From contig JACPHR010000018.1 in assembly GCA_016188455.1 (NCBI GenBank), positions 5,079-69,078 of the forward strand: a DNA stretch of 64,000 bases, read 5' to 3'. The notes beneath the pieces were generated by a model. That model was not told where the DNA came from, made no database searches, and saw nothing but the letters and a program-made list of their open reading frames with translations. Positions within the stretch are counted from its first letter, which is position 1, and every line of letters starts with the position of its first letter. Below are positions 45,472-59,425 of this stretch, piece by piece. Both the position numbers and the translations under genes were made by a program. Origin of the DNA: Candidatus Tayloriibacteriota bacterium. GTDB taxonomy: Bacteria > Patescibacteriota > Minisyncoccia > Phycocordibacterales > SIBU01.

Positions 45472-45691
45472 TATTGAATTACAAAACTCTTGCCAAGAGA
45501 TTCCCTTTCCACAAGCCTCGGCTCCGGACAAGGCGCGTGGAAGCGGAAAAGGTCTCTTTCCGCGAACAATCCGCATCTTTTAAGGGTATCACCGATACCC
45601 AGAAATGGCTTTTAGCCGCTATCGCGGCTAAAAGCCATTGTTGAACATTTTATGTAGCGGGAGGTGACTGAAAAAGAATTTCGTAACTTAG
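45472..45691. mobile_element. Family-A-related composite element (diverged ends, extra internal hairpins) flanked by a 10-bp direct repeat AGTTTCTTAA
   Basis: ttgaattacaaaactcttgcc...agaatttcgtaactta. Core ccggacaaggcgcgtggaagcgg. Internal 15-bp perfect stem atggcttttagccgc/gcggctaaaagccat. Direct repeats at 45462-45471 and 45692-45701. Confidence 0.45.
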
Positions 45692-46395
45692 AGTTTCTTA
45701 AACCAAAAACAGCCGCAGCCGTAACGCTCAAGGTCGGCTAGTTTCGGGTCGGCATTTCTTATGAGGCCCCCGTCCCGAGCGTCCTCCGGTATGAGCGAGA
45801 ATTCAACCAGTTTTAACTTTGAGAAATATTCCATAATTTGCCCGTAAGCATATACGCGGTGGGCGTTAAAGACGATTTTCGGTTTGCCTACCGGCGCCAC
45901 GAAAAGCAAATCGCCTTTCGGAGCGAGCACCCGCATCAGTTCGCCGATGGCTTTGAGGTCGCCGTCCGGGTCCAAGGGCTCGCCGTAGCGGCCGAGGCCG
46001 ATATGCTCTACGGTGTGCATGCATGAAAGCGATTGGACGCTGCCATCTTTAAACGGCAGAGCGGTCAGGTCGGCCGCCGCCGATTTTAGATTGTCCAACT
46101 CCAGAGCGGCTGGCCGGTAATCGTAAAATTCAACGGGGAGAAACGCCGACACGATGACGCCGAAGGTTAAAGTTGAAGATATGTCAGTGTGCGTTTTCGG
46201 TTTGGTTTCCGCCAGCACCCGCGCCGCCCACGCCGGATGATAGACGTAATGCCGGTCAAAACCGGTTTGCTTGGTCTTGTCGCCCAAGCAAGGCTTTCGC
46301 TCGTTCCAATCCATGGCAAAACGCTCGTTGCCGAACGACTTGAATTTTCGCCAGTTGCTTAAAAACTCCAAATATTTTAGATATTGCCGCATCAA
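45688..46395 (-). CDS. Putative class I SAM-dependent methyltransferase
   Basis: ...SLSCMHTVEHIGLGRYGEPLDPDGDLKAIGELMRVLAPKGDLLF resembles the Methyltransf_11/DUF268 type. Confidence 0.45.
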   Translation of the reverse strand: MMRQYLKYLEFLSNWRKFKSFGNERFAMDWNERKPCLGDKTKQTGFDRHYVYHPAWAARVLAETKPKTHTDISSTLTFGVIVSAFLPVEFYDYRPAALELDNLKSAAADLTALPFKDGSVQSLSCMHTVEHIGLGRYGEPLDPDGDLKAIGELMRVLAPKGDLLFVAPVGKPKIVFNAHRVYAYGQIMEYFSKLKLVEFSLIPEDARDGGLIRNADPKLADLERYGCGCFWFKKL

Positions 46396-47354
46396 TTTTT
46401 GCTCAATATTAGCGCCAGTATTTTCGGGTGTTTTCTGGCGAATCTGACGGAGATTCTTTTCAGCTTTTCTCTGAAGGGCACGGTCAGCGCGCCGGTTTTG
46501 CCGACGGGCGTATTTTTGAGGCGGATAGGCGAGCGGTCAAGCGTATTATACCAGCTTTTGCTTCCCGCCTCGCTTTTAATGTATAGGGCGTCGCGCGGGT
46601 CCAGCAAATCCAAATAAGGCATAATCATTTTGGTGGCCATGAGCGACACCTCGTTTTCTTTTTTTGCTTCGCGGGTGAAAAGGGAATCGGTGCCGTAGCG
46701 GTGATAGTAGAAGCTGTTCGGCATGACCGCGAATTTGGCGCCGGCGGCCAGGCATTTTAGAGTGAAGCCCCAAGCCTCGTGCAGGCCCTTGCCGTATTCC
46801 CAAACGCCGCCGACGGTTTGCCAAAGGGCTTTGGTGAACATATAATTTCCGCCGGGGCCGGGATTGATGTCGCCCGCCAGAAAATCGGCAAAAGTTAAAA
46901 CACCCGGGCGGCAAAGCCACTTGTGGGTAATTTTTTTCTTGCCGTTTTTTTCTTCTCGAAAATAGCGGTACTCGGCGAAGCCTGCCATGTCGGCCTTTTC
47001 GGCAATCATGCAGGTTTTTAGTTTGGGCACGCTTGCCGGCGCCAAGACATCGTCGGCGTAGAGGTTAAAAATAATTGGATTTTTGGCGGCGGCGTAAGCG
47101 ATATTTCGGGCCGCCGGACAGCCTCTGTTTTCCTTACTTACGATGATTTCAATGAAGGGGTATTTTTTTCGGAGCTCTTCAAGTATCAGAAGGGTATCGT
47201 CGGTCGAGCCGTCATCCACGACGATAAGCTCGTCTCCGGTCCCGAAATTGCCGTTCATGATGGACTCCACCGATTCCGCGACAGTGCCGCCAGCGTTGTA
47301 CGCTGGCATGCAAAAGCTTATGCGGTCTTCGTTTTTTATTTTAGGACCGATCAT
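46392..47354 (-). CDS. Family 2 glycosyltransferase
   Basis: ISFCMPAYNAGGTV...LIVVDDGSTDDT. Confidence 0.7.
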   Translation of the reverse strand: MIGPKIKNEDRISFCMPAYNAGGTVAESVESIMNGNFGTGDELIVVDDGSTDDTLLILEELRKKYPFIEIIVSKENRGCPAARNIAYAAAKNPIIFNLYADDVLAPASVPKLKTCMIAEKADMAGFAEYRYFREEKNGKKKITHKWLCRPGVLTFADFLAGDINPGPGGNYMFTKALWQTVGGVWEYGKGLHEAWGFTLKCLAAGAKFAVMPNSFYYHRYGTDSLFTREAKKENEVSLMATKMIMPYLDLLDPRDALYIKSEAGSKSWYNTLDRSPIRLKNTPVGKTGALTVPFREKLKRISVRFARKHPKILALILSKN

Positions 47355-48219
47355 TGTTGGTGTTCATGAGTACGTCTTCGAGCTTCTTTTTAGGAAAGAC
47401 GTCAAGCAGGCTGCCGGGCGTGCAGTTTACGATACTCGCGCCTCTCTTGTCGCAATACCGTTTTAGCTTCTTGTATATTCGCCACAGGTTGACTTGCGAT
47501 TGCAGGACGAATTCAAAATCCTTGTTCCACTCGTTATAGTTGGCTTGGGTCAAAGCGCTCTTCTTCTCGTCGTAAAAATGCCGAGTTTCGCCGTAGTGGA
47601 GAATCCAGTCGTGGTCGGCGCCCACGAGACAGAGGTTTTTCGCTCCCATATAGAGCGCGATATAGAGGGCGGTGTGGGGACTGGTTTGGATGAGCAGCAG
47701 TTGTTTGGCGAGGTCAATGGTCATGTTCTCGCTCGGTTCTTTCGTGCCGGTGAGGTAGTAATAGACCCGCTGTTTTTTGAAGAGCCGATATTTATCAACG
47801 ACCACTTTGTCCGTCAGGCCGATGAAAACTTTCTGGCCCTCGGGCATGTGTTTTTCAGCGTCCTCAAACCACGCTTTATACTGCTCGTAACTGATGGGGG
47901 AATGTGAGGCGGTGAAAATGTGATACTCGGGCTTGATGACGTTGAAATCCGGATGCAGGAAAAAATTGCTTACGCTTATACAAAACTCGCCCTCAAGCTT
48001 TTTCAGGTCCATCTTGTTGATGGACGGGCCGGTGGCCAGAATAAAACAACGTTTGCCCGGGGCAGAATTTTTGAGCAGTTTGTTCGGTCTTAAAACCTCT
48101 CGGTTTTTGTAATAAAACCGCCATTGCTTGAACTTATTCCGCCATGTTTGAAGCCAGCCGCTGGCTTTTGTCAAACTCGGCCCCACCAGAGTATTTTGTT
48201 TGAGAGCTTCTTTTATCAT
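47341..48219 (-). CDS. DUF115 (MptE-like / motility-accessory-factor-like) putative glycosyltransferase
   Basis: ...CFILATGPSI... and ...LCLVGADHDW... are DUF115 hallmark motifs. Confidence 0.45.
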   Translation of the reverse strand: MIKEALKQNTLVGPSLTKASGWLQTWRNKFKQWRFYYKNREVLRPNKLLKNSAPGKRCFILATGPSINKMDLKKLEGEFCISVSNFFLHPDFNVIKPEYHIFTASHSPISYEQYKAWFEDAEKHMPEGQKVFIGLTDKVVVDKYRLFKKQRVYYYLTGTKEPSENMTIDLAKQLLLIQTSPHTALYIALYMGAKNLCLVGADHDWILHYGETRHFYDEKKSALTQANYNEWNKDFEFVLQSQVNLWRIYKKLKRYCDKRGASIVNCTPGSLLDVFPKKKLEDVLMNTNNDRS

Positions 48220-48343
48220 CCCGTTAGAGGCAAGTCGCGATCAACCCGCGCTGTGGGTAGTTACTTTTGTTAATAATGATAGGACGGCAACACATAACAG
48301 TTCTAGCTTCTTCTTAAACCGTGACCGCGGCCTCTAACGGGAT
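48218..48343. repeat. Family-D palindromic element, intercistronic, abutting an ATG
   Basis: atcccgttagagg ... cctctaacgggat. The left end overlaps the start codon of 47341-48219, and the right end overlaps the last codons of 48303-49130. Confidence 0.5.
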
Positions 48344-49130
48344 TCATGCCGAAAATATACAGGCCGGTCGCGCCGCTCCACTTTGAATCGTGGCGGAGGG
48401 TCAGCACGTGGCTTTTAATCCAGAGCATAAAGTTTTTTATCGCCTTCTCCTTGCGCCTTAGGCCCATGTCGGAGAGCACGTTGGGCAAGCGGTGGCTAAA
48501 ATCTTTAATGAGTTTAGTACCCTGCGCCCACTCAAAGTCAAAGGTTTTCCAGACGAGTTTCAGGTTGAGAGCCTTTGCCCAGCCCGCAAATTCAATCGGC
48601 GTGAGATAGTGAAGGTCGGCGAGCGTAATGGGAGCGTCAAAAAGAAAACGCAAGGTCTGAAGGATGTAGCCGCGCGGATTGGTCCAGTTGGGACTGGTAA
48701 TGATTATGGAACCTCCCGGGTTTAGATGTTTTTTGAATAATTTGAGGGCGGCCAGCGGTTTATCCATGTGCTCCAATGTGCCGAGCGACATGACAATATC
48801 GTATCGGCCTCGGTGATTTTTTACGTCTTCCGTTCGGTATTCAAGATTGGGCGCCGCGTAAGTTCTGCGGGCTTGCCGGATGCCGTCGCGGCTAAAGTCA
48901 ATGCCCACCACCTTCTTGGCGCCCGAGCGCGCGGCGAGCGCCGCCATGAGCCCGGTGCCGCAGCCGACGTCAAGCACGCTCTTGCCTTGCCACTTGACGG
49001 CCTTTCTCACTTCGGCCTCGTCAATCGGCAGGCGAGCCTTTTCCCCGAAGAGCAGTTTCGTGTAGTGCTTTTTCTCACCGCGCCGATAGACCGAATTGTA
49101 GAATGCCGCAAGGTCTTTGTTTTTTCTCAT
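48303..49130 (-). CDS. Class I SAM-dependent methyltransferase
   Basis: VLDVGCGTGLMAALAA (motif I) ...VVGIDFS.... Confidence 0.65.
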   Translation of the reverse strand: MRKNKDLAAFYNSVYRRGEKKHYTKLLFGEKARLPIDEAEVRKAVKWQGKSVLDVGCGTGLMAALAARSGAKKVVGIDFSRDGIRQARRTYAAPNLEYRTEDVKNHRGRYDIVMSLGTLEHMDKPLAALKLFKKHLNPGGSIIITSPNWTNPRGYILQTLRFLFDAPITLADLHYLTPIEFAGWAKALNLKLVWKTFDFEWAQGTKLIKDFSHRLPNVLSDMGLRRKEKAIKNFMLWIKSHVLTLRHDSKWSGATGLYIFGMNPVRGRGHGLRRS

Positions 49131-49135
49131 AGATT

Positions 49136-51031
49136 TTACAGACCGTATTTTTTTAATCTTTTAAGGGCCGTAATAAAACCCTCGCCGTTGTAGTGGTGGC
49201 CCATCCAGATTTCCGGTGCCATGGTCACGTTTGTTCTAAGAATTTCCGGCATCAATATTTTCCACGGGACATCACCGTCGCCCACTTGAATACCCTCGCC
49301 GTCGGTGCCGATGCCGTCCGAGAGGTGAATATGTTTGACCAACGGTTTGAGGGTTTTGAAGAATGCTAACGGATCTTTCTTCGCAAAGGTGCAATACAGT
49401 TGAGCGTGGCTGGTGTCGTAACAAAGCGAGTAGCCGTATTTTTTGGCGAATAGATAAATTTCTTCAGCGTCGGTGAATGTGTTTGAGAACCAGGCGCCGC
49501 CTTTGTACCACGGGAAGGGCGGCAAGTTCTCTAAAAGAAGCTCAATGCCGGTTTGGTCCAGCTTTTTGAGGCCGTGGCCGAGCCGCGTATACATTTTTGC
49601 CCGTTCTTTTTTAGTGGCGAATTGGTTATAGCTCATGCCGCCGGTGTGAAGCGCCACTTTCACTTTTGGCGGCGTTTTCCCGAAATATTTTCTAATCTCA
49701 CGGACTTTCTTAAGGAAGTCGTTTATGTGTTTGATTGAAGCCCTTACCGTTTCCTTGTCGTCGGAGCAGAAATCCAAAAGTTTGTCGTCCCATAACTCAG
49801 GCGCGTGGGCCACGAGCTCAAGCTCTGGATGATTTTTGAAAACCATCGGGTGGCCGAGGTCGTGGGAGCTGAAATGAAATTCCACAAATGAAGGCTTGAG
49901 TCCCGAAATCATGTTTTCAAAATCGTGCGGCCGGACAATGAGTCCCCATTTTCGTTTTGAGCTGAAAGCGCGGTCATGCTTTTTCTTACCGAGGTCTTCT
50001 TCCGTGAAGTAGCCGTCTTTGGCGATGTCTCTTCTGGCTTTTTGCCCCACCAGTTCGTACAGCTTCTGCGGCGAAAGGCCTTTGGCCGGACTCTTGGCCG
50101 CTATCATCTCGCGGGTCAGGGTTTCTCCGGCTTTAACGGCCTTGGCCGCCACCAGGCTTTTGCCGAGAATTTTCCGATTGATGAATTCTCCCATGGTCAT
50201 GAATTTTTTGTCGCTTTGCAGCGCTTCCTCAATTCGGCGGATGTCGCGGACGAGCCTTATGATGCCGGCTGGCTCGAGCGAGATGGCATGGTCCGGTCCG
50301 GTCATTGTCCGGTCAAGGGTGATGTGGCGCTCAATCACTTTGGCCCCCAGGGGGACGGCCGCCATTGAAATGGCCAGTCCGAGCTCATGTCCTGAATAAC
50401 CGACGACACAATCAAACTTTGCCTTAAGCACCTCTATGAACTTCAGGTTAGCGTCTTTGGCGGCGGCGGGGTAGGCACTGTTGCAGTGAAGGAGAATGTA
50501 CTCCGCGCCGAGCTTGTTAAGATGCGACACAGTCGCTTCAATTTCTTCAAGCGAGGACATGCCGGTTGAAAGGATCATGGGCTTTTTCTTTGAAGCGACG
50601 TATTCGATAAGCTCAAAATTGACTAAGTCGGCCGAGGCGAGTTTGTAGGCGGGCACGTCGAGCTTTTCCAAAATGTCCACGCTCGCGATGTCCCACGGCG
50701 TGCAGAGAAACATAATGCCTTTCTCTTTGGCGTAGCGGGCGAGCATCTTGAAATTTTCATCCGACAGGGTGGCTTCGCGGATGAGGGAGAGGATGTACTG
50801 CGAAGCGATGTCTTCATGTTTCGTATTGTTAAAGGCCTTATCGGTGTAGAGGGTTTTGAAATCGCGCATCTGGAATTTCACCGCGTCGGCTTTTGCCTCA
50901 ACGGCCAGGTCAATCAGCTTTTTGGCGAGCTCAATCCGGCCGTTATGATTGATGCCCGCTTCGGCAATGATAAAAGCCGGGTGTCCGTCACCGATTAGCC
51001 GGTTGCCGATTTTGATTGTTTTGTTTTTCAT
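49136..51031 (-). CDS. NeuB-family sialic/nonulosonic acid synthase fused to a C-terminal xylose-isomerase-like TIM-barrel domain
   Basis: N-terminal about 340 aa: ...FIIAEAGINHNG..., ...CTPWD..., SAF domain. C-terminal about 290 aa: TIM-barrel sugar-phosphate isomerase/epimerase-like. Confidence 0.65.
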   Translation of the reverse strand: MKNKTIKIGNRLIGDGHPAFIIAEAGINHNGRIELAKKLIDLAVEAKADAVKFQMRDFKTLYTDKAFNNTKHEDIASQYILSLIREATLSDENFKMLARYAKEKGIMFLCTPWDIASVDILEKLDVPAYKLASADLVNFELIEYVASKKKPMILSTGMSSLEEIEATVSHLNKLGAEYILLHCNSAYPAAAKDANLKFIEVLKAKFDCVVGYSGHELGLAISMAAVPLGAKVIERHITLDRTMTGPDHAISLEPAGIIRLVRDIRRIEEALQSDKKFMTMGEFINRKILGKSLVAAKAVKAGETLTREMIAAKSPAKGLSPQKLYELVGQKARRDIAKDGYFTEEDLGKKKHDRAFSSKRKWGLIVRPHDFENMISGLKPSFVEFHFSSHDLGHPMVFKNHPELELVAHAPELWDDKLLDFCSDDKETVRASIKHINDFLKKVREIRKYFGKTPPKVKVALHTGGMSYNQFATKKERAKMYTRLGHGLKKLDQTGIELLLENLPPFPWYKGGAWFSNTFTDAEEIYLFAKKYGYSLCYDTSHAQLYCTFAKKDPLAFFKTLKPLVKHIHLSDGIGTDGEGIQVGDGDVPWKILMPEILRTNVTMAPEIWMGHHYNGEGFITALKRLKKYGL

Positions 51032-51135
51032 CCCGTTAGAAGTTTAGTAACTAATGGAAAGTGATAGTATATTAAAAGTAGCTATTCGTCCAACCCGTTT
51101 TCAAAAAAGATACCGGCTGCGCTTCTAACGGGATT
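51030..51135. repeat. Family-D palindromic element, intercistronic, abutting an ATG
   Basis: atcccgttagaag ... cttctaacgggat. The left end overlaps the start codon of the neuB-like gene. Confidence 0.5.
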
Positions 51136-51161: not shown

Positions 51162-52292
51162 TCAAACTTGGAGCGATGTTTCAGAGGCCGCTTTAGGTAT
51201 GTTCAACACCGCCATTATCCGGTCGCAAAAATAGGCTGGAGAGAATTGTCCGAATCGGCCGGTTTCAAGATACGTCTGTCCAGCGCTAATCATTTTTCGG
51301 TATTCTTCTTCGGTGACGCTTTTCAAATATTTCGCCAGGGCGGCGTCGCTCTTGAAACGGCGGCGGTCGACGAACGCTTCCCGGTCAACATAGGTTTCTA
51401 TATTGGAAGCTCCCCAATAGATCGGCACGGTGCCGGCTTGAATGGTATCAAATATTTTCTCTGTTATATAGCCCTTGGTGCCGGAGAGGTTTTCGTAGCA
51501 CAGGGCGAATTTATAACGGGACAGCGTCTCCATTTTGTCTTGGCTCACGCCGCGCCAGCAGGCGAACTTGGGTATCAGCGCCGGGAAGTATTTTTGCCAG
51601 CGCGAGGTCGGCGTGTGCCACCTCGCACCGAACAGGTCAAAATCGTCAGGGTAGTGCGAATCGAAATAAGCGCTGGTTTTTGCCCTCGCGGAGTACAGTT
51701 CGCGCGGCCTTGGATAGTAGCGGTTGGCCGACATGTTGACGAGCAGTTTTTTTTCTTCAAACGGCAAAGGGTTTTTCCGCGGCGGCCTCGTCGGGGTCGG
51801 CAGGAAAAATTTAAAAAACTTTTTGTCGTCCACAAGGTCGTCGTCCCAGGTGAAGATGGTTTTAAATTTGTCCCACACCCGAGGGCTGTAGTTTAGCGGG
51901 TTGTTCACTTTTCCTTCCCAAAGGATAAGCGCCATTTTATCCCCCATGTTTTTTTGGAGCGCTTCCTCGTAGAGCGGCCGCACCGGCCAGCCGCGGCGGT
52001 CTTTGATGCCGAGGATTTTTTTGAAAAATTCTTTGATTCCGTATGCCGGCTGGTCCAACCCGAGGCTTGACGAATCAAAAAATAATATCCAGGCGCAGTC
52101 ATCCAGGGGGTTGTCGTCCGCCGTCATGAGGTTATAGCCACGTAACGCCAACCGCCGTTTCAGTTCGCGCCACGGCTCGTTCATGCCGTTTTTGTCGGGG
52201 CCAAAGATGGCGTTGTGGGCCAGGGATTTGTGCGACACATGAAGAAGGATTTTTTTCATAGCGGTTTTTTCTTTAACGGCAGCGGTTTCCAA
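51162..52292 (-). CDS. Alpha-1,3/4-fucosyltransferase (GT10)
   Basis: YKFALCYENLSGTKGYITEKIFD...IPIYWG matches the GT10 motif (YKFxLxFENSxxxxYxTEK). Confidence 0.6.
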   Translation of the reverse strand: METAAVKEKTAMKKILLHVSHKSLAHNAIFGPDKNGMNEPWRELKRRLALRGYNLMTADDNPLDDCAWILFFDSSSLGLDQPAYGIKEFFKKILGIKDRRGWPVRPLYEEALQKNMGDKMALILWEGKVNNPLNYSPRVWDKFKTIFTWDDDLVDDKKFFKFFLPTPTRPPRKNPLPFEEKKLLVNMSANRYYPRPRELYSARAKTSAYFDSHYPDDFDLFGARWHTPTSRWQKYFPALIPKFACWRGVSQDKMETLSRYKFALCYENLSGTKGYITEKIFDTIQAGTVPIYWGASNIETYVDREAFVDRRRFKSDAALAKYLKSVTEEEYRKMISAGQTYLETGRFGQFSPAYFCDRIMAVLNIPKAASETSLQV

Positions 52293-53332
52293 ATGATGAT
52301 GGAATAGCCCTCAATAAACTGGCTGCCGATGCGGGTTCTTTTGGCTTCAATGATTTTGATTTTCTTTGCTTTTTCCAATTCTCTCAAATAATCAAGAAAG
52401 CCCTCCAGGTAATTTCTTTTTCTGAAGTATTTAATTGACAGGTTGTCAATCAGCCGGTCTTCGTTCAGCAATTCGGCGATCGGTTCAACGTGCAAGCAAA
52501 GCGCCGGTTGATTTTGGAGGAGATATGAAACAAAGGCCTTATATTTTATGCCAACTTGTTCCAGCGCCGCTGCGGTATAGATTGCCGAGTGGGCGGCCAG
52601 CTTGATTTTTTTGTTCGGCTTGAAAAAATCAAAATTATAACCTTTGATGTTTTTCACTAAATGAGCGTCAGCCATTTGCTTGATGATTCTTTGCGACGAT
52701 TTCGCCCAATCAAGACCGAAGAGGTTGGCGGACGGATTAACTTCGCGCGCCCTAAGAAGGTTGTGGCCGGTGCCGCAGCCGAACTCGTAGATATTCTCAG
52801 ATTTTCTCAAGTATTTATCAAAAACGTAATCAAGAATGACATAAAGCATATTTCTTTCGTAATTTGGCGAGGCGGCTCTGATGAACTTTTGGTCTAGCCG
52901 GTTAACCGGGTATTTGCCGTGGTAGCGGGGGAATACGGCATCAGCGGTTTTTTCTTTTCGGAGTCGCGTGAGATTTTGTCCCCAGCCTTTTTCCCACTGT
53001 TTCAACCGATGCGGCCCTGAATAAACCAAAGACGGGTCAAGCAGGGTGTTGATAATCTTGATGAAAACTTGTTCTTCCTCGCGTGTACTGAGCGGGCAAT
53101 AGGCCAGCTTGTAGCCGGCGATTTTATGTTTGACGTAGCCGCTCAATTTTTCACGCCAGAGCTTCTCTATCTCTTTGTAGCCTAGACGGACTTTTTTCAT
53201 TCGCAGTATCATACAGGATTGACGATTGTTTGACAAGTGTTGATAAATATGATAACTTACTATCCAGACAGAAACGGCGGCGCTTTTGCGGGTGCAGAAT
53301 ACGTTTGCTGTAGGGGATAAATTTGAAATCAA
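52256..53332 (-). CDS. Putative class I SAM-dependent methyltransferase
   Basis: ...YEFGCGTGHNLL... (motif I), DxA region. Confidence 0.45.
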   Translation of the reverse strand: MISNLSPTANVFCTRKSAAVSVWIVSYHIYQHLSNNRQSCMILRMKKVRLGYKEIEKLWREKLSGYVKHKIAGYKLAYCPLSTREEEQVFIKIINTLLDPSLVYSGPHRLKQWEKGWGQNLTRLRKEKTADAVFPRYHGKYPVNRLDQKFIRAASPNYERNMLYVILDYVFDKYLRKSENIYEFGCGTGHNLLRAREVNPSANLFGLDWAKSSQRIIKQMADAHLVKNIKGYNFDFFKPNKKIKLAAHSAIYTAAALEQVGIKYKAFVSYLLQNQPALCLHVEPIAELLNEDRLIDNLSIKYFRKRNYLEGFLDYLRELEKAKKIKIIEAKRTRIGSQFIEGYSIIIWKPLPLKKKPL

Positions 53333-54093: not shown

Positions 54094-54172
54094 CGCCAGT
54101 TTTCTCTATTCTCTATTTTCTATTCTCTACTCTACTCTCTATTCTCTACCCTCTATTTTCTAACTTTCGGAT
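54094..54172. repeat. Short tandem CTATTCTCT/CTATTTTCT repeat tract
   Basis: tctctattctctattttctattctctactctactctctattctctaccctctattttc. Inverted and direct copies lie at 55074-55140 and 55203-55252. Confidence 0.6.
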
Positions 54173-55073
54173 AATTTTCCACAAACCAATTAACGGTCTG
54201 CTCTATGCCTCCGTCAACCGGAGTAAACTTAAAATCCGGCAGGTACTTTTTCAGTTTCGTTCCGTCCGACGGTTTGCGGAACTGGCCGTCGGGTTTAGAG
54301 CCGTCAAAAACGATTTTGCCCGTGAACCCCATTTTTTTGGCGATGACGAGGACGAGGTCGCGTATGGAGGTTTCAATACCGGAGGTAAATATGATCGGCG
54401 CTGACTCTTTGTAATTATCAAGCATCCACAGCGCCAGTTTGGCAATGTCATCCGTCAACACCAGTTCGCGCAAAGGTTTGCCGCTGCCCCAGACGACCAG
54501 GTCCGTATTATTTTTCTTGGCCAGGTAGCATTTATGGATGAGAGATGGCACCACGTGGCCGTCCGTGAAATTAAAATTATCATTCGGGCCGTAGATGTTT
54601 GTGGGAATGGCGATAATGTAATTGCAGCCCCACTCGCTGTTATAGGCGCTGCTTTGCACTTCAAGCATCCTTTTGGCGTAGGCATAGCCGAAATTTGAAG
54701 GATGAGGCGGGCCGTTATGCAGGTCTTTTTCGTTGAGCGGGTAGGGGCACTTGTCGGGGAAGACGCAGGTGGACATGAAAGAAATCAGTTTTTTGACGCC
54801 GGTCAATCGCGCCGCTTCCAAGACGTTGATGTTTATCATGATGTTGTTGCGGAAGTATTCCCCGGAGTGAATCATGTTGCCGCCGATGCCGCCCACTTGG
54901 GCGGCCAGATGAATCACTTTCGCCGGCCGGTGCTTTTTGAAGAGCTTCACGGTTTGGTTAAAATCGGTCAAGTCGCCGTCTTTCCGAGAAAGAAAAACCA
55001 TATTTGGCAGACCCAATCTTTTAATGGCCGAACCGATAAGGCCGCTGCCTCCCGTGACTAATGTTATAGACAT
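54153..55073 (-). CDS. GDP-L-fucose synthase family epimerase/reductase (paralog)
   Basis: ITLVTGGSGLIGSAI...YAYAKRM...NIYGPNDNFN...HVVPSLI pattern of Fcl/WcaG. Confidence 0.65.
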   Translation of the reverse strand: MSITLVTGGSGLIGSAIKRLGLPNMVFLSRKDGDLTDFNQTVKLFKKHRPAKVIHLAAQVGGIGGNMIHSGEYFRNNIMININVLEAARLTGVKKLISFMSTCVFPDKCPYPLNEKDLHNGPPHPSNFGYAYAKRMLEVQSSAYNSEWGCNYIIAIPTNIYGPNDNFNFTDGHVVPSLIHKCYLAKKNNTDLVVWGSGKPLRELVLTDDIAKLALWMLDNYKESAPIIFTSGIETSIRDLVLVIAKKMGFTGKIVFDGSKPDGQFRKPSDGTKLKKYLPDFKFTPVDGGIEQTVNWFVENYPKVRK

Positions 55074-55252
55074 AGATAATAGATGTTAGAAAACAGATAA
55101 TAGACGGTAGAAATTAGAGAATAGAAAATAGAGATTAGACTTTTTAAGAAATTGCCTTGATAAATTTGTTAAGCATTTTCGTAATTATTAGTTTTCATTT
55201 CTTTCTGTGTTCTATTTTCTATTCTCTACTCTCTATTTTCTATTCTCTCATA
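55074..55252. repeat. Inverted pair of CTATTTTCTATTCTCT-type repeat tracts with a 70-nt AT-rich spacer
   Basis: gagaatagaaaatagag (55115-55131) opposed to ctctattttctattctc (about 55225-55245). Confidence 0.55.
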
Positions 55253-56266
55253 TAAGATTTTTTGCCACTCTACAGTGCGAGAGAGTCCCTCGTCAAGCGG
55301 CACATAATCGGTTTTCTTGAATTCATTTTTCACTCTCGTCATATCTAGTTGGGTATCAAGTGGCGCGCCCGCTCCCAAGTTCTCTGATCTTGAAACCGCC
55401 GGAAAAACCACCGGCACCTTGAGCAATTTGCCGATTTTCTTCGCTAAGTCAGCAATGGTGATGGTTCCCGCGCCGCCGACATTGTAAATTGGTTCTTTGC
55501 CGAAAAGCAGTATCCGCCAGAGAATTTCCACGGCGTCGCTTACATAACAGTAGGTTCTTTTAACCTCACCATGATCCAGGAGCGTTAATTTGCCCCGCAG
55601 AGCTTTTTCAATGAAAGCATTGATAACCCGCTTGTCTCCCGGTTTCGTGCCGGGACCGTAGGCTAACGATAGCCGCGCCGATTTTGCGTCAACGGCTTGG
55701 GCTCTTTCGGCGTTGACGATGGCCTCTCCGCATCTTTTGCCCTCAATGTAGCAAGCTCTCGGGTGCGCGGTGTTTGTCGTGCCTATCATGTCCTCCCCGT
55801 AGGGGGTCGTCTCCAATCCGCTGTAGACTTCGCTGGTGCTCATAAAAAGGAACTTGCCGCCCTTCTTTAATTTTTGAAAGAGAGCGATGGTCACTGTCGT
55901 GTTAAGCCCCATGGTTTTTAGGGGATTCTCCAGAAATTTCCCGGGTTGGCCGTAGCCGGCGGCATGGATAATATAATCCGCTTGGGGCAGTGAGGCCATC
56001 AGTTTCGCATTGGTCAAATCGCCCTGTACGAAGCCCACATTTTCTCCAAAATAAGAAAGATATTCGGGAAATTTATTTTGCACGACGGCGACGATATCCA
56101 TCTTCACGCCTTTGTTCCGCAGCTCTCTTAAAGTTGCCAAAAAATACGTGCCAATGAGCCCGGACGCGCCAGTCAAGAGTATGGTTTTGCCGTCAAGTTC
56201 GCGAAAATCAATCTTCGGCAAGATTTCCAAAACGTCATTTTTAATTATGGTCGCAAGCTCATTCAT
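55226..56266 (-). CDS. NAD-dependent epimerase/dehydratase
   Basis: ILLTGASGLIGTYF..., YxxxK (YIEGKRCGE). Confidence 0.65.
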   Translation of the reverse strand: MNELATIIKNDVLEILPKIDFRELDGKTILLTGASGLIGTYFLATLRELRNKGVKMDIVAVVQNKFPEYLSYFGENVGFVQGDLTNAKLMASLPQADYIIHAAGYGQPGKFLENPLKTMGLNTTVTIALFQKLKKGGKFLFMSTSEVYSGLETTPYGEDMIGTTNTAHPRACYIEGKRCGEAIVNAERAQAVDAKSARLSLAYGPGTKPGDKRVINAFIEKALRGKLTLLDHGEVKRTYCYVSDAVEILWRILLFGKEPIYNVGGAGTITIADLAKKIGKLLKVPVVFPAVSRSENLGAGAPLDTQLDMTRVKNEFKKTDYVPLDEGLSRTVEWQKILYERIENRE

Positions 56267-57147
56267 TGCAATAATTTTCTCAAGCGGCGGCGGATAGATG
56301 AAGCGGTGATTGCCATACGTTCGTCATGCTCTTCCGCCTTGCCGTAGTTGAGAATAAATTTTCGAGGTACTCCCGCCGTTTCAACAACCAGAGGGCGAGG
56401 TTTCAGCGCGGCCGTGACTTCGTTCGTTAAACCGCCTTCGTAATAGGGCTCACAGAGTAAAACCTTTGCCGACGGGCAATTGTTTCTCAAGGTCTCTCCG
56501 TCAAAAGGAGCGACGGTCGTGTAATAAAGCACCGTCACGTCTTCGCCTTTAGAGGCTTCAAGCGCGCTCTTAAGCGCCGGACCAACGGCGATGACCGTGG
56601 CCTGCCTGCCTTTTTTTACCACCTGGGCCTTGCCGAATCTGACCTTATAACTTTCGGCGTTTTCTTTTTCCGAGAGCCGGTAGTATGTCGGGTGGCCGTT
56701 GCCGTAGGCTTGCCTGAAAAGAGCGTCAAATTCGGCGGCGGTTCCCGGCACCACTATCTCCATCCCGGGGATATTCTGGAGGAGGCCGACATCCCCCGGG
56801 CAGTGGTGTGTTGGGCCGAGGGCGGCGTAATCGTAGGATGCTCCGATGCTGACAAAATTGCCTCCGAGTTTTTGATAGCCGAAGTCGTCTTTCAATTGCT
56901 CAAAAGAGCGTTCTACCAAGAAAGTGGCGATGGTGTGGACTACCGGAATAAATCCCGTCATGGCCAATCCCGCCGCCGCGCCTATCGTGGATTGTTCCAA
57001 AATTCCTATATTGTAAATTCTCTCGGGGAACTCCTTGAATGATTTTCGAAGAGCGAACACACTGATGTCGCCTAGGAGTACGACAAGACGCTCGTCGCTC
57101 GCCAGCAAGCTTTCAGTGGTTTGAACGAATTGTCTTCTCATGCTCAT
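56263..57147 (-). CDS. Transketolase, C-terminal subunit (split transketolase)
   Basis: Pyrimidine-binding/C-terminal domain pattern (...GPTHHCPGDVGLL...). Sits directly downstream of the N-terminal subunit gene. Confidence 0.7.
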   Translation of the reverse strand: MSMRRQFVQTTESLLASDERLVVLLGDISVFALRKSFKEFPERIYNIGILEQSTIGAAAGLAMTGFIPVVHTIATFLVERSFEQLKDDFGYQKLGGNFVSIGASYDYAALGPTHHCPGDVGLLQNIPGMEIVVPGTAAEFDALFRQAYGNGHPTYYRLSEKENAESYKVRFGKAQVVKKGRQATVIAVGPALKSALEASKGEDVTVLYYTTVAPFDGETLRNNCPSAKVLLCEPYYEGGLTNEVTAALKPRPLVVETAGVPRKFILNYGKAEEHDERMAITASSIRRRLRKLLQ

Positions 57148-57282
57148 GTTTCAAATGTAAAATGTAAACATCAAAATGGAAAATGACATATTGCAATATT
57201 AAAAATTTTGAGAGGTCTTAAATTATTTGATTTTGAATTTTGCATTGTCATTTTAATCTTTGATTTTTTAATTTTCAATTTA

Positions 57283-58062
57283 TCATGACGGGGAAAGTTC
57301 TTTTAAGATAATTTCCAGTTCTTCCCTGTTGGGCGCTTTGTGGTGCCAGGCCGGATTGTTTTCCATGATTTTTGAGCCGCGGCCTTTAATTGTCTCGGCG
57401 ATTACGGCCAAGGGCTTGCCGAGGTGTTTCGTTCTCAAGGCTTTTTCAATCGCTTTGTGGTCGTGGCCGTCTACCGAGACGCTCGTCCAGCCGAAAGCTT
57501 CAAACTTAGTCCTAAGGTCTCCGAGGCGAAGCGCCCGGTCGGTGGAATGATTGTAGTCCAGGATAAGCGAGAGGTTGTCCAGCTTGTGGTGGGCCGCCAA
57601 GAGCGCCGATTCCCAGACGGCGCCTTCGTTGGCCTCGCCGTCGCCGATAAGCACGAAGACGCGGGAGGGAAAGTGCTTAATCTTGAGCCCTAAAGCGTTG
57701 CCTACCGCCATGGGAAAGCCGTGACCCAGAGAGCCAGTGGAGGCTTCGGCGCCCGGCACTTTGTTTCTGTCCGGATGGCCGCCGAGACGGCTTTCAAAAT
57801 CACAGTATTTTTTCAACCACTCGCCGCTGAAGAAACCCTTTTCGGCCAAAACGGCGTAGAGGGCGAGCGACGCTTGGCCTTTGGACAGAAAGAATCTGTC
57901 CCTCCTCGGGTCGTCTGGGCGCTTCGGGTTTATGGCGAGTACCTTGTCGTAGAGGACCCAGAGGATGTCCAAAATGGAAAAATCGCTTCCGAGGTGCCCC
58001 TCGCCGGCGTGGAACGACGCCTTGACTATCAAACGTTTTAATTTGTTCAGGTTAGCTTTCAT
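57283..58062 (-). CDS. Transketolase, N-terminal (ThDP-binding) subunit
   Basis: ...HAGEGHLGSDFSILDIL..., ...GDGEANEG... ThDP motif. Confidence 0.7.
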   Translation of the reverse strand: MKANLNKLKRLIVKASFHAGEGHLGSDFSILDILWVLYDKVLAINPKRPDDPRRDRFFLSKGQASLALYAVLAEKGFFSGEWLKKYCDFESRLGGHPDRNKVPGAEASTGSLGHGFPMAVGNALGLKIKHFPSRVFVLIGDGEANEGAVWESALLAAHHKLDNLSLILDYNHSTDRALRLGDLRTKFEAFGWTSVSVDGHDHKAIEKALRTKHLGKPLAVIAETIKGRGSKIMENNPAWHHKAPNREELEIILKELSPS

Positions 58063-59353
58063 CGGATTGCTTGTTTTGGTCAGAGACTAATTTTAAGGTC
58101 CACCGGTTTTTTATGAAAATTTTTCCTTCCGGTTTTTCCGCCGGATGCGCCTGGTTGAAGTACGCCGACGGCCCGACGGTTACGGTTTTTTCTATGGTGT
58201 GTTTAGCGAGATAATTCATGACCGAAAAACGATTCAGGCTTAAACTGACGAAATAATTTCCCGGCATCAGCAATTTTTCCGGGAACAGCAAAGTTGCTTG
58301 GTATCTGCCCTTGGCGACCCGTTCAAGTTCCGGCTGCCAGTCGGAAGTGAAACTTCTTGTTAGCACGTCGCCAAGGGCGTTTTTTAAGTACACGCCCGCG
58401 CGGAAAAGCGAAAGGTTGGCGTGCGCCTCAAAGTCAATTTCAACGGTAAACGGCGTGTCCGCGTCCAAATGGGCCGTACGGATGTTTTTCTGGCTTACCG
58501 CGAAATCATGAAGTGTCACTTCGCCTTTAAGTTTCAACGGAAAAAGTTTTTCGTGGCCGGAGCTTTTTTCGTACTCGGCGGCCAGATAATGCCGGATAAC
58601 GTCTCTCGTCTCGCCCGCTTTGACGATTTTGCCGTGAGACAGAAGAATTGATGTGGGGCAAAGCTTTTCCACCGCTGACATATTGTGGCTGACGAAAAGA
58701 ATCGTCCGGCCGGCTTTGCCGGTGACCTCTTCCATTTTACCCAAACACTTTTTTTGAAACTCGGCGTCGCCGACGGCCAGCACTTCGTCAACCAGAAGGA
58801 TGTCGGGTTCAATGTGGGCGGCGATGGAGAAAGCCAGACGGACGTACATGCCGGTGGAATAGCGTTTGACCGGCGTATCAATGAAATCGCCGATGCCGGA
58901 GAAATCAACGATGGCGTTAAATTTCTCTCCGATTTCTTTGCGAGTCATGCCCAAGATGGCCCCGTTGAGGAAGACATTTTCGCGGCCCGACAGCTCGGGA
59001 TGAAAACCGGTGCCCACTTCCAGGAGCGAGGCCACCCGGCCGTTCAGTCTGACTTCCCCTTCGGTCGGCGGGGTGATTCGGGAGAGAATTTTCAGCAGGG
59101 TTGACTTGCCGGCGCCGTTAGCCCCGATAATGCCCACCGCTTCGCCTTTTTTGACTGAAAGGTTTATGTTTCGCAACGCCCAAAAAGTTTCCATTCGGTT
59201 TGTGCCCATGATGTTTCTGCCGATGCCCGCCAGCGCCGAGAGCGGATGTTTTAATTTTTCCGATATTACGTCGCGCAGCGCTACGTATCCCCGTTTCCTT
59301 CCGGTGATGTTATAACGTTTGCCGACGTTTTTTATTTCTATAATGGATAACAT
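58052..59353 (-). CDS. wzt: Polysaccharide ABC transporter ATP-binding protein with C-terminal carbohydrate-binding domain
   Basis: Walker A GANGAGKST, LSGGQ-like YSTGMYVRL, Walker B ILLVDE, plus an about 180-aa C-terminal extension typical of Wzt/TagH. Confidence 0.75.
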   Translation of the reverse strand: MLSIIEIKNVGKRYNITGRKRGYVALRDVISEKLKHPLSALAGIGRNIMGTNRMETFWALRNINLSVKKGEAVGIIGANGAGKSTLLKILSRITPPTEGEVRLNGRVASLLEVGTGFHPELSGRENVFLNGAILGMTRKEIGEKFNAIVDFSGIGDFIDTPVKRYSTGMYVRLAFSIAAHIEPDILLVDEVLAVGDAEFQKKCLGKMEEVTGKAGRTILFVSHNMSAVEKLCPTSILLSHGKIVKAGETRDVIRHYLAAEYEKSSGHEKLFPLKLKGEVTLHDFAVSQKNIRTAHLDADTPFTVEIDFEAHANLSLFRAGVYLKNALGDVLTRSFTSDWQPELERVAKGRYQATLLFPEKLLMPGNYFVSLSLNRFSVMNYLAKHTIEKTVTVGPSAYFNQAHPAEKPEGKIFIKNRWTLKLVSDQNKQSDES

Positions 59354-59420
59354 ACGAAAATTATAAGATACGAAAACTATGCGAATGGCTACGAAATGAT
59401 ACGAAAATTGCGGGGTACGA
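59341..59420. repeat. AT-rich TACGAA-motif repeat (about 60 bp; direct copy of 60705-60770) overlapping the wzt start codon
   Basis: catacgaaaattataagatacgaaaactatgcgaatggctacgaaatgatacgaaaatt. Confidence 0.45.
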
Positions 59421-59425
59421 ATTTG

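What the first reader, a model, noticed from the sequence alone, without database searches (positions are those of the whole stretch)
49136..51031. NeuB-like nonulosonic acid synthase fused to a TIM-barrel sugar-phosphate isomerase/epimerase-like domain
A 631-aa protein. The first about 340 residues are a NeuB/PseI/LegI-type synthase with SAF domain. The remaining about 290 residues resemble xylose-isomerase-like TIM-barrel enzymes. This fusion could couple sugar-phosphate rearrangement to condensation with PEP. It is preceded by a family-D element fused to its ATG, and the neighbourhood contains a DUF115 (Maf-like) protein and several methyltransferases, reminiscent of flagellin or pilin nonulosonate glycosylation islands.
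Basis: partly seen in the sequence, partly recalled or inferred. Interest (0 to 1): 0.5.

Follow-up and report, generated by a model that had tools for sequence, protein, structure and literature searches.

The report
Sugar-acid synthase fused to candidate phosphatase
A real, widespread two-enzyme fusion that most likely makes a sialic-acid-like sugar (Kdn type) from a sugar phosphate and then removes the phosphate with an unusual metal-binding barrel domain related to DNA-repair endonuclease IV rather than to sugar isomerases.

Summary
The 631-aa ORF exists, on the minus strand (49136-51031), with NeuB + SAF + xylose-isomerase-like TIM-barrel (PF01261) domains. It is not a frameshift artefact. 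More than 120 full-length homologues occur in CPR bacteria, Chloroflexi, Asgard archaea and cultured Orenia and Phycicoccus, and an 87%-identical orthologue sits in a syntenic locus.

- The C-domain profile matches MJ1311 (E 6e-17) and endonuclease IV (8e-11), but ketose epimerases only at E about 0.3. All nine endonuclease-IV trinuclear-metal ligand positions are kept; seven identical, two acidic.
- The NeuB domain keeps all catalytic residues but lacks Arg314. It shares a signature (R56, G214, R286) with the Man-6-P-specific Prymnesium Kdn-9-P synthetase.
- Every non-fused NeuB with this signature (9/9) has a KdsC/Kdn-9-P-phosphatase-like HAD gene within 1.5 kb; in seven it is the next gene, where the fusion carries the C-domain. 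None of the 95 C-domain loci has one there.

Best model: a bifunctional ulosonate-9-phosphate synthase/phosphatase in a Wzm/Wzt glycan cluster, not a flagellin island. This is inferred, not assayed. The sugar's identity is unknown, and no CMP-transferase gene lies in this window.

The parts
49136..51031 (-). Whole ORF: 631 aa plus stop; a NeuB-SAF-TIM-barrel fusion protein
50177..51031 (-). N-terminal NeuB-type PEP-condensing TIM barrel (residues 1-285). Catalytic residues E24, K52, Q54, K130, S133, S155, Y187, S213, H215, H236, D247, E282 are conserved. Clade signature: M55-R56, G214, E216, R286.
   Evidence: Pfam. PDB alignments to N. meningitidis NeuB. Residue counts in 82 fused against 59 non-fused homologues.
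49991..50158 (-). SAF (antifreeze-like) domain, residues 292-347. Ser314 replaces the Arg314 of N. meningitidis NeuB.
49139..49951 (-). C-terminal (beta/alpha)8 barrel, residues 361-631, MJ1311/endonuclease-IV-like. Invariant residues: H409, H462, E501, D539, H542, H569, E579, E607. D577 is nearly invariant. Candidate ulosonate-9-phosphate phosphatase.
51029..51133 (-). Intergenic 'family-D' element: inverted 12-mers TCCCGTTAGAAG / CTTCTAACGGGA bracket the 5' region, and the 3' arm is fused to the ATG. The predicted closing stem ends one base before the AUG.
   Evidence: Absent upstream of the 87% orthologue.
48303..49130 (-). Class I SAM methyltransferase immediately downstream. The same gene order is fused into one polypeptide in P0067.
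47341..48219 (-). MptE-like/DUF115 protein; candidate ulosonic-acid transferase (inferred)
   Evidence: Conserved in orthologous loci L085 and L170.
45688..47354 (-). GT2 glycosyltransferase (46392-47354) and DUF268 methyltransferase (45688-46395)
51162..53332 (-). GT10-like glycosyltransferase (51162-52292) and methyltransferase (52256-53332), upstream of the fusion
54153..62872 (-). Rest of the cluster: Fcl-like SDR, another SDR, split transketolase (56263-58062), Wzt ABC ATPase with Wzt_C (58052-59353), PDDEXK_3, Wzm ABC-2 permease (59894-60709), SDR, GDP-mannose 4,6-dehydratase (61745-62872)

Best explanation
The protein is most likely a bifunctional 3-deoxy-nonulosonate-9-phosphate synthase/phosphatase of the Kdn pathway type. 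Proposed steps: (1) The NeuB/SAF half condenses phosphoenolpyruvate with a hexose 6-phosphate, most simply mannose 6-phosphate, to give the ulosonate 9-phosphate. (2) The C-terminal barrel hydrolyses the 9-phosphate at a multinuclear metal centre like that of endonuclease IV and releases the free ulosonic acid. This is the step done by a KdsC-family HAD phosphatase in Bacteroides and in non-fused relatives. (3) The sugar is then CMP-activated, by a CTP_transf_3 enzyme that is adjacent in most loci but not in this window. It may be methylated, and it is added to a glycan exported by the neighbouring Wzm/Wzt ABC transporter, with the MptE-like protein as candidate transferase.

Shown here: the domain architecture, conservation of the catalytic and metal-ligand residues, and the gene-neighbourhood patterns. 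Inferred: the phosphorylated substrate, the phosphatase activity, the identity of the sugar and its destination.
For: 1. The fusion is genuine and widespread. In the 5 metagenome loci where an untruncated C-domain is a separate gene, it lies 0-8 nt downstream of a NeuB gene on the same strand.
2. All NeuB catalytic and metal residues are conserved in at least 81 of 82 fused proteins. The Arg314 present in 45 of 59 non-fused NeuBs is never present (Gly or Ser instead). R57, G214, E216 and R286 (N. meningitidis numbering) are fixed instead.
3. The biochemically Man-6-P-specific Prymnesium parvum Kdn-9-P synthetase (PMC6200933, sequence from its supplement) carries K56, R57, G214 and R286. It groups with the signature clade in a neighbour-joining tree.
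4. Among loci with a signature NeuB, 95 have the C-domain and no HAD within 1.5 kb. 9 lack the C-domain and all 9 have a KdsC-type HAD within 1.5 kb. In 7 of those the HAD is the gene directly downstream and its best or second-best NCBIfam hit is Kdn-9-P phosphatase NF058599 (E 1e-29 to 1e-52). In L084 the HAD is fused to the cytidylyltransferase. None of the 49 full-length non-signature NeuB loci has either partner.
5. Six loci carry two parallel modules: CTP_transf_3-HAD plus a short signature NeuB, and CTP_transf_3 plus the NeuB-C-domain fusion. Each synthase therefore has one phosphatase candidate.
6. One HAD (L026) is fused to a mannose-6-phosphate-isomerase-like cupin.
7. The C-domain profile hits MJ1311 (E 6e-17) and endonuclease IV proteins (8e-11 to 3e-3). 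H409, H462, E501, D539, H542, H569 and E607 align with Nfo H69, H109, E145, D179, H182, H216 and E261. D577 and E579 occupy the D229/H231 loop. All are invariant or nearly so.
8. CTP_transf_3 lies within 1.5 kb in 17 of 27 dereplicated loci with enough flank. KpsC/KpsS-like Capsule_synth (15 of 49) and MptE/Maf neighbours are ulosonic-acid-transferase-like. No conserved NeuC-, PseG- or aminotransferase-type genes supply a free sugar.
Against: - No activity has been measured for any member of the family.
- No small-molecule phosphatase is known to me in the PF01261 / endonuclease IV fold. Xylose isomerase also uses two metals on this fold, so multinuclearity alone does not prove hydrolysis.
- The C-domain and HAD clades are distinct sister groups. 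Their complementarity could reflect lineage history rather than functional replacement, and the loci were collected by searches biased towards the fusion.
- The window (64 kb) and its 87% orthologue locus contain no CTP_transf_3 gene, so CMP activation in this organism is unexplained.
- The window protein has Met, not Lys, at signature position 55.
- The neighbour-joining tree is crude, and B. thetaiotaomicron BT1714 and animal NANS could not be included.
Confidence: 0.55

Rival explanations
1. The C-domain is a sugar(-phosphate) isomerase or epimerase that produces the aldose substrate for the NeuB half, or epimerises the keto-acid product. Catalysis would use the canonical Glu-Asp-His-Glu single-metal site of the xylose-isomerase-like superfamily.
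For: Pfam assigns the domain to PF01261. The E501/D539/H569/E607 tetrad of the superfamily is present. Ketose epimerases, the isomerase Art22 and xylose isomerase are among the top structural neighbours. There is a weak NCBIfam hit to fructoselysine 3-epimerase (E 5e-4). Xylose isomerase itself is binuclear.
Against: Profile similarity to epimerases is marginal (E 0.26-0.94), against 6e-17 for MJ1311 and 8e-11 for endonuclease IV. The extra invariant His/Asp/Glu residues (H409, H462, H542, D577, E579) match endonuclease-IV metal sites 1 and 3 (established knowledge of Nfo). The likely substrate, Man-6-P, is a central metabolite and needs no dedicated isomerase. In non-fused relatives the equivalent position holds a phosphatase, not an isomerase.
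Confidence: 0.15
2. The C-domain is a phosphoesterase acting before condensation. It would release a free aldose from an NDP-sugar or a sugar 1-phosphate, the role of PseG, NeuC or LegG in the Pse, Neu and Leg pathways. The NeuB half would then use an unphosphorylated sugar.
For: The endonuclease-IV-like metal centre fits phosphodiester cleavage. The window and some loci are rich in NDP-sugar-modifying enzymes: GDP-mannose dehydratase, SDRs, DegT, GHMP kinase and NTP-transferase. No NeuC/PseG homologue is conserved next to the fusion.
Against: Dedicated NDP-sugar genes are not conserved across fusion loci; the minimal conserved pair is CTP_transf_3 plus the fusion. The NeuB signature is shared with a Man-6-P-specific synthase. 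The displaced partner is a product-side KdsC-type phosphatase.
Confidence: 0.1
3. The C-domain has another role: a dehydratase, lyase or other tailoring enzyme acting on the ulosonic acid, or a non-catalytic or regulatory scaffold. An unlinked, generic phosphatase would then remove the phosphate.
Against: Strict conservation of a full multinuclear ligand set argues for catalysis. The exact HAD/C-domain complementarity, and the two-module loci, would then be coincidence.
Confidence: 0.12
4. Artefact: two adjacent genes were merged by a sequencing or assembly error.
For: Rare loci do show the two halves as separate ORFs (L004, L088-L091, L094).
Against: More than 120 independent full-length fusions of the same length come from many phyla and assemblies. 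An 87% orthologue has the same frame and synteny. The AF2 model is confident and continuous through the linker.
Confidence: 0.01

Closest known systems
Kdn-9-phosphate synthase plus Kdn-9-phosphate phosphatase plus CMP-Kdn synthetase pathway of Bacteroides thetaiotaomicron (BT1714/BT1713/BT1715), and the Prymnesium parvum Kdn-9-P synthetase (Wang et al. 2008, from memory; Wagstaff et al. 2018, PMC6200933)
   Same: The synthase is of NeuB type and shares the R57/G214/R286 signature. A cytidylyltransferase of the CTP_transf_3 family is adjacent in most loci. A dedicated phosphatase partner accompanies every non-fused relative.
   Different: The phosphatase step would be done by a fused metal-dependent TIM barrel unrelated to the HAD fold. 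A SAF domain is present, whereas the P. parvum enzyme lacks it. The sugar made is not established.
Bacterial sialic acid, legionaminic acid and pseudaminic acid synthases NeuB/LegI/PseI (for example N. meningitidis NeuB, PDB 1XUZ)
   Same: Same fold and same catalytic and metal residues; 30-35% identity; SAF domain present.
   Different: The protein scores below the NCBIfam equivalog cut-offs (348 against 400 bits; 267 against 340). It lacks Arg314 and has G214/E216 where most of those enzymes have D214/T216. Those enzymes use free sugars and have no phosphatase partner.
MJ1311 of Methanocaldococcus jannaschii (PDB 3WQO), an orphan 'D-tagatose 3-epimerase-like' protein
   Different: Only about 20% identity. 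MJ1311 is a stand-alone protein of unknown function, and it has Asp/His where the fusion has D577/E579.
Endonuclease IV (Nfo/Apn1), the AP endonuclease with a trinuclear zinc centre
   Same: Same barrel. Seven of the nine metal ligands are identical in aligned positions and two are replaced by acidic residues. Nfo also has 3'-phosphatase/diesterase activity (established knowledge).
   Different: The domain gave no hit to any Nfo model in NCBIfam. It is fused to a sugar synthase, and its context is glycan biosynthesis, not DNA repair.
KdsC / Kdn-9-P phosphatase (HAD-IIIA, C0 type)
   Same: It occupies the same operon position next to signature-clade synthases, and the proposed reaction is the same.
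   Different: There is no homology: Rossmann-like HAD fold with Asp-nucleophile chemistry, against a multinuclear metal TIM barrel.

Membership tests
NeuB family (PF03102) with SAF domain | Pfam NeuB and SAF matches above the gathering cut-offs | tested here: met
   288 bits against 22.1; 40.8 bits against 21
NeuB family (PF03102) with SAF domain | PEP-, metal- and catalytic residues of N. meningitidis NeuB (E25, K53, Q55, K129, S132, S154, Y186, S213, H215, H236, D247, E282) | tested here: met
   All present in the window protein and in at least 81 of 82 fused homologues
N-acetylneuraminate synthase / pseudaminic acid synthase (NCBIfam equivalogs TIGR03569, TIGR03586) | Score above the curated equivalog cut-off | tested here: not met
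   348.4 below 399.65; 267.3 below 340.25
N-acetylneuraminate synthase / pseudaminic acid synthase (NCBIfam equivalogs TIGR03569, TIGR03586) | Arg314 of the SAF domain contributed to the sugar site | tested here: not met
   Ser314 in the window protein; Gly or Ser in 82 of 82 fused proteins; Arg in 45 of 59 non-fused NeuBs
Ulosonate-9-phosphate (Kdn-9-P / Neu5Ac-9-P) synthases | Sequence signature shared with a biochemically characterised 9-phosphate synthase | tested here: met
   P. parvum Kdn-9-P synthetase has K56, R57, G214 and R286. The window protein has M55, R56, G214 and R286 in its own numbering. The P. parvum enzyme groups with the signature clade.
Ulosonate-9-phosphate (Kdn-9-P / Neu5Ac-9-P) synthases | Dedicated product phosphatase encoded next to the synthase | tested here: inconclusive
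   All 9 non-fused signature relatives have a KdsC-type HAD. The fusion has the C-domain instead, and its phosphatase activity is inferred.
Ulosonate-9-phosphate (Kdn-9-P / Neu5Ac-9-P) synthases | Requires a 6-phosphorylated hexose as substrate | not testable with these tools
   Needs an enzyme assay
Xylose isomerase-like TIM barrel superfamily (PF01261) | Pfam match above cut-off and a (beta/alpha)8 fold with the Glu-Asp-His-Glu metal site | tested here: met
Ketose 3-epimerase / sugar isomerase branch of PF01261 | Significant profile similarity to characterised epimerases or isomerases | tested here: not met
   L-ribulose, D-tagatose and L-xylulose-5-P epimerases score only E 0.26-0.94
Endonuclease IV (Nfo) | Nine ligands of the trinuclear zinc centre (H69, H109, E145, D179, H182, H216, D229, H231, E261) | tested here: inconclusive
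   Seven are identical in aligned positions. The D229/H231 loop carries D577/E579, and the alignment in that loop is ambiguous.
Endonuclease IV (Nfo) | Recognised by Nfo family models; has a DNA-binding groove | tested here: not met
   No Nfo model among the NCBIfam hits.
Flagellin nonulosonate glycosylation island (Maf type) | Flagellin/FliD genes and Maf (Maf_flag10_N + MptE-like) genes next to the NulO genes | tested here: not met
   The window has Wzm/Wzt, glycosyltransferases and a short MptE-like protein, and no flagellar genes. The feature is met in the Orenia locus L001.

The most novel reading that the evidence does not exclude
The C-terminal domain founds a new functional class. It would be a sugar-acid-phosphate phosphatase built on the endonuclease-IV / xylose-isomerase-like TIM barrel with a multinuclear metal centre. 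It would have displaced the HAD-type Kdn-9-P phosphatase in hundreds of lineages, including CPR bacteria, Chloroflexi, Asgard and DPANN archaea and some Firmicutes and Actinobacteria. That would give the first functional lead for the orphan MJ1311-like proteins. It would also show that the 'eukaryote-like' phosphorylated route to Kdn-type sugars is widespread in uncultured prokaryotes.
Probability: 0.5. Interest if true: 0.65.

Novelty: new variant of a known kind. Interest (0 to 1): 0.55.

Why it matters
If confirmed, it adds a phosphatase chemistry to a fold known for sugar isomerisation and DNA repair. It would be a clear case of non-orthologous enzyme displacement inside a conserved three-step pathway (synthase, phosphatase, CMP-transferase).

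It would correct a generic annotation carried by hundreds of database protein clusters ('N-acetylneuraminate synthase family protein' or 'sugar phosphate isomerase/epimerase').

It predicts Kdn-like rather than sialic-, legionaminic- or pseudaminic-type sugars on the surfaces of CPR bacteria and Chloroflexi, including apparently sulfated and methylated versions.

The prediction can be tested directly in cultured carriers such as Orenia marismortui and Phycicoccus sonneratiae.

Tried and rejected
- Frameshift or missed-stop artefact: rejected.
- Flagellin island for this window: rejected; the cluster is of Wzm/Wzt type.
- Word-indexed homologue search with the C-domain alone returned only fragments of fusions. 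The exhaustive HMMER census was needed (610 cluster representatives; architectures of about 630 aa, about 750 aa with an N-terminal CBS domain, and about 280 aa stand-alone; Pfam check).
- A single-sequence PDB search with the C-domain found nothing significant; only the profile did.
- The afdb50 library was unavailable.
- The search for related loci with the broad alignment A3 failed for lack of a conserved stretch; it was repeated with A5.
- Five searches for any description of the fusion or of MJ1311's metal site found nothing on either, apart from one table listing MJ1311 as a predicted Endo IV homologue. The MJ1311 structure paper is not held, so what I say about it is from memory.
- Looking for CTP_transf_3 beyond the window failed: the contigs retrieved for edge genes end at about the same places. 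tblastn found none inside the window.
- A 'stand-alone SAF + barrel' protein (P0126) proved to be a fusion broken by a frameshift.
- I had planned to push about 150 neighbour proteins through Pfam as a pseudo-alignment. I replaced this with my own clustering plus annotation of representatives.
A pTM of 0.69 with high pLDDT suggests the relative domain placement is uncertain.
Full report
**Observation.** The interval 49136-51031 holds a single ORF of 631 codons on the minus strand; the plus-strand frame is full of stops. Pfam finds NeuB (residues 39-275, E 5e-86), SAF (292-347) and the xylose-isomerase-like TIM barrel PF01261 (403-627, 55 bits against a cut-off of 31). NCBIfam places the N-terminal half below the equivalog cut-offs for N-acetylneuraminate synthase (348 against 400 bits) and pseudaminic acid synthase (267 against 340). 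AlphaFold2 gives a confident continuous model: pLDDT 91.7, pTM 0.69, no disordered segment. The C-terminal 277 residues alone reach pLDDT 96.1.

**Is the fusion real?** Yes.
- The identical protein is on record from a Candidatus Taylorbacteria MAG. The best 120 hits are all 524-959 aa proteins with the same domain set. They come from CPR bacteria, Rokubacteria, Omnitrophica, Nitrospinota, Nano- and Helarchaeota and the cultured Orenia marismortui.
- A scan of species-representative genomes adds Anaerolineales, Verrucomicrobia, Fibrobacteria, Bdellovibrionota, Proteobacteria and the cultured Phycicoccus sonneratiae.
- An exhaustive HMMER search with the C-domain alone finds 610 cluster representatives (128 at E<=1e-30). 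They fall into three architectures: about 630 aa; about 750 aa with an extra N-terminal CBS domain; and about 280 aa stand-alone.
- In 80 metagenome loci retrieved with the stand-alone form, every copy not cut by a contig end is either fused or lies 0-8 nt downstream of a NeuB gene on the same strand (five loci).
- An 87%-identical orthologue sits in a fully syntenic locus of an independent assembly.

**Surroundings.** All neighbours on the minus strand belong to one glycan cluster:
- GDP-mannose 4,6-dehydratase and several SDRs;
- Wzm, and Wzt with a Wzt_C domain;
- a split transketolase;
- methyltransferases and a GT10-like glycosyltransferase;
- the fusion itself;
- a methyltransferase, an MptE-like/DUF115 protein, a GT2 and a DUF268 methyltransferase.

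Further upstream lie GDP-heptose-type genes, UDP-sugar dehydrogenases, GT2, GT11 and GT4. There are no flagellar genes. This is therefore an ABC-transporter-dependent polysaccharide locus, not a flagellin island. In Orenia the homologue does sit between flagellin, FliD and Maf genes. No CTP_transf_3 (CMP-ulosonate synthetase) gene exists anywhere in the 64 kb or in the 87% orthologue locus. In a 77% orthologue it lies directly upstream of the fusion.

**What is the C-terminal domain?**
- Sequence profiles do discriminate. A profile of stand-alone and fused C-domains hits MJ1311 at E 6e-17 and endonuclease IV proteins at 8e-11 to 3e-3. Ketose and pentulose epimerases score only E 0.26-0.94.
- Invariant residues across 32-35 diverse fusions are H409, E412, H462, E501, N502, D539, H542, H569, D572, E579, Q582, E607 and H612. 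D577 is nearly invariant.
- The HMM alignments put H409, H462, E501, D539, H542, H569 and E607 on Nfo H69, H109, E145, D179, H182, H216 and E261. D577/E579 lie in the loop that carries D229/H231. I recalled the E. coli Nfo sequence from memory; it reproduces the published ligand numbering.
- The domain therefore has counterparts at all nine endonuclease-IV ligand positions, and so probably the multinuclear metal site, not only the single Glu-Asp-His-Glu site of the sugar epimerases.
- From memory, the MJ1311 structure paper (Uechi et al. 2014) reported the same nine ligands without a DNA-binding groove. I could not retrieve that paper. A table in PMC2770678 lists MJ1311 as the predicted Endo IV homologue of M. 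jannaschii.

**What is the NeuB half?**
- All residues that bind PEP and the metal in N. meningitidis NeuB are conserved in at least 81 of 82 fused proteins.
- Arg314, the SAF-domain arginine present in 45 of 59 non-fused NeuBs, is always Gly or Ser.
- T56, H/F57, D214, T216 and a variable 286 are replaced by K/M56, R57, G214, E216 and R286.
- The Prymnesium parvum Kdn-9-phosphate synthetase was shown biochemically to accept only mannose 6-phosphate (PMC6200933). I translated its sequence from the paper's supplement. It carries K56, R57, G214 and R286, and it groups with the signature clade in a neighbour-joining tree.

**The key comparison.** Nine non-fused NeuB genes among the retrieved loci carry the same signature and have no C-domain within 10 kb.
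- In seven of them the gene directly downstream, the position the C-domain occupies in the fusion, is a 160-171-residue KdsC-family HAD phosphatase (or a 286-residue HAD fusion protein). Its best or second-best NCBIfam match is the B. thetaiotaomicron-type Kdn-9-phosphate phosphatase (E 1e-29 to 1e-52).
- In one of these (L026) the HAD is fused to a mannose-6-phosphate-isomerase-like cupin.
- In the eighth locus (L084) the HAD is fused to the cytidylyltransferase.
- In the ninth (L037) my HMM finds a HAD hit overlapping the NeuB ORF's coordinates.

Counts over all loci:

| NeuB type | C-domain, no HAD within 1.5 kb | HAD, no C-domain | Neither |
|---|---|---|---|
| Signature | 95 | 9 | 0 |
| Full-length, non-signature | 0 | 0 | 49 |

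Eight further non-signature entries were flagged with a C-domain nearby. Six are truncated or broken ORFs, one (L019) is a signature variant with E216D, and one (L068) has only a weak PF01261-like neighbour (35.9 bits).

Six loci contain two complete modules side by side: CTP_transf_3-HAD plus a short signature NeuB, and CTP_transf_3 plus the NeuB-SAF-C-domain fusion. Each synthase of this clade thus comes with exactly one phosphatase candidate, either the HAD or the barrel.

**Other conserved neighbours.** They fit a CMP-activated ulosonic acid.
- CTP_transf_3 lies within 1.5 kb in 17 of 27 dereplicated loci with adequate flanks.
- A KpsC/KpsS-like Capsule_synth protein occurs in 15 of 49 loci. 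MptE/Maf proteins, a WaaA-like Kdo transferase, TagF-like transferases, SDR and GFO/IDH/MocA oxidoreductases and methyltransferases also recur.
- In Anaerolineales there are ATP sulfurylase/APS kinase and sulfotransferases.
- No NeuC-, PseG- or LegG-type hydrolase, and no aminotransferase/acetyltransferase set, is conserved. This argues for a substrate taken from central metabolism.
- In P0067 a methyltransferase is fused after the barrel, in the same order as the genes in the window.

**Mechanism proposed.**
1. The NeuB/SAF half condenses PEP with a hexose 6-phosphate, most simply Man-6-P, to give the ulosonate 9-phosphate.
2. The barrel hydrolyses the 9-phosphate at an endonuclease-IV-like metal cluster.
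3. The free acid is CMP-activated, possibly methylated, and transferred to a glycan exported by Wzm/Wzt.

The Wzt_C module and the many methyltransferases are reminiscent of O-antigen systems whose chains end in a recognised terminal residue. This is established knowledge of E. coli O9a and Klebsiella O12; its application here is speculation. Steps 1 and 2 rest on sequence signatures and gene-neighbourhood complementarity. None has been assayed.

**Weak points.**
- No small-molecule phosphatase is known to me in this fold, and xylose isomerase is also binuclear.
- The HAD and barrel clades are sister groups, so history could mimic displacement.
- Locus sampling was biased towards the fusion.
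- The tree is a simple neighbour-joining tree.
- The CMP-transferase is missing from this window.

I put the bifunctional synthase/phosphatase model at about 0.55.

**The 'family-D element'.** Five intergenic regions are bracketed by inverted 12-mers, TCCCGTTAGAAG ... CTTCTAACGGGA: 1179-1282, 21063-21165, 25820-25938, 48217-48342 and 51029-51133. In four of them the 3' arm abuts the ATG of the downstream gene. The interiors are unrelated in sequence. The arms form the closing stem of the predicted RNA folds (z -2.7 to -5.5) and pair up to the base before the AUG. The element is absent upstream of the 87% orthologue. It is therefore a feature of this genome, not of the gene family.

**Novelty.** The architecture is already in the databases under generic names, and the searchable literature did not mention it. 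Three conclusions appear to be new but unproven:
- the barrel belongs to the endonuclease IV/MJ1311 branch;
- the synthase belongs to the 9-phosphate clade;
- the barrel replaces the HAD phosphatase.

I classify the finding as a new variant of a known kind, the Kdn-type three-step pathway.

Noticed in passing
window 1179-1282, 21063-21165, 25820-25938, 48217-48342, 51029-51133: Five intergenic regions are bracketed by inverted 12-mers TCCCGTTAGAAG / CTTCTAACGGGA. In four the 3' arm is fused to the downstream ATG. The interiors are unrelated. The predicted closing stems (z -2.7 to -5.5) pair up to the base before the start codon. The 48217-48342 copy overlaps the last 40 nt of the upstream methyltransferase gene. 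An extra lone arm lies at 1139-1150. The element is absent upstream of the orthologue in L170.
   Followed up: partly
window 9909-9978, 17280-17370, 19108-19224, 29601-29715, 40150-40266, 40788-40943: A second family of intergenic repeats, up to about 110 nt (TGAATTACGAAACTCG ... CCCGCGCGCCTTGTCCGGAC and its inverse GTCCGGACAAGGCGCGCGGG). It occurs in both orientations; repeat families D3, D4, D6, D8, D9, D12 and D15.
   Followed up: no
window 31672-31713 and 43031-43072: Two identical 42-nt copies of a near-perfect palindrome (TGTTACCTAACTCAAGCGTACGCTTGAGTTAGGTAACA), 11.4 kb apart, both in intergenic DNA.
   Followed up: no
window 54083-54168 and 55189-55274: Pyrimidine-rich 12-14-nt tandem units (TTCTCTATTCTCTAC...) on the plus strand. 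On the minus strand they are purine-rich tracts straddling the stop codon of one minus-strand gene and the intergenic region or the first codons of the next (54153-55073, 55226-56266).
   Followed up: no
window 10374-10538 and 11158-11484: Tandem CTGACACCAATTCC-type repeats on both strands, flanking ORF 10580-11260, plus a perfect 115-nt duplication (11158-11272 = 11317-11431).
   Followed up: no
window 59328-59409 and 60684-60765: An 82-nt repeat (80% identity) rich in ATACGAAAA units, lying upstream of both the wzt and the wzm genes. A PDDEXK_3 nuclease-family gene (59426-59881) is inserted between wzm and wzt.
   Followed up: no
window 53323-54042 (+): An HD-domain (metal-dependent phosphohydrolase) ORF on the opposite strand, inside the otherwise minus-strand cluster. 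It is also called as a gene in an independent assembly (L168).
   Followed up: partly
window 56263-58062 (-): A split transketolase (N and C halves as separate genes) embedded between wzt and SDR genes. It is conserved in the orthologous locus L170 and suggests a two-carbon branched or extended sugar in the same glycan.
   Followed up: no
window 22452-26676: A GDP-heptose-type gene set: GHMP kinase, SIS isomerase, DUF218, NTP-transferase and a HAD phosphatase. The HAD did not match my KdsC-type HMM. A transaldolase lies next to it.
   Followed up: partly
L108, L112, L135, L141, L009, L128: Loci with two parallel ulosonate modules: a CTP_transf_3-HAD fusion plus a short signature NeuB, and about 3.5 kb downstream a CTP_transf_3 plus the NeuB-SAF-barrel fusion.
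   Followed up: partly
L026 8012-8869: A KdsC/Kdn-9-P-phosphatase-like HAD fused to a mannose-6-phosphate-isomerase-like cupin, directly downstream of a signature NeuB in a Methanophagaceae archaeon.
   Followed up: partly
L005-L012, L020, L022, L116, L139 and others (Anaerolineales/Chloroflexi): Here the fusion is flanked by a bifunctional ATP sulfurylase/APS kinase, several sulfotransferases and a KpsC/KpsS-like Capsule_synth protein. This suggests sulfated ulosonic-acid glycans.
   Followed up: partly
P0153, P0155, P0186, P0240 (about 750 aa); P0067 (959 aa); P0163 (403 aa): Architectural variants: CBS-NeuB-SAF-barrel; NeuB-SAF-barrel-methyltransferase; and a stand-alone barrel with a C-terminal CBS domain.
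   Followed up: partly
window 42078-42110 and 42947-42979: A 33-nt repeat (97% identity) at the 3' ends of the NAD synthase gene (40210-42105) and of the following Pfam-less 260-aa ORF (42135-42917).
   Followed up: no
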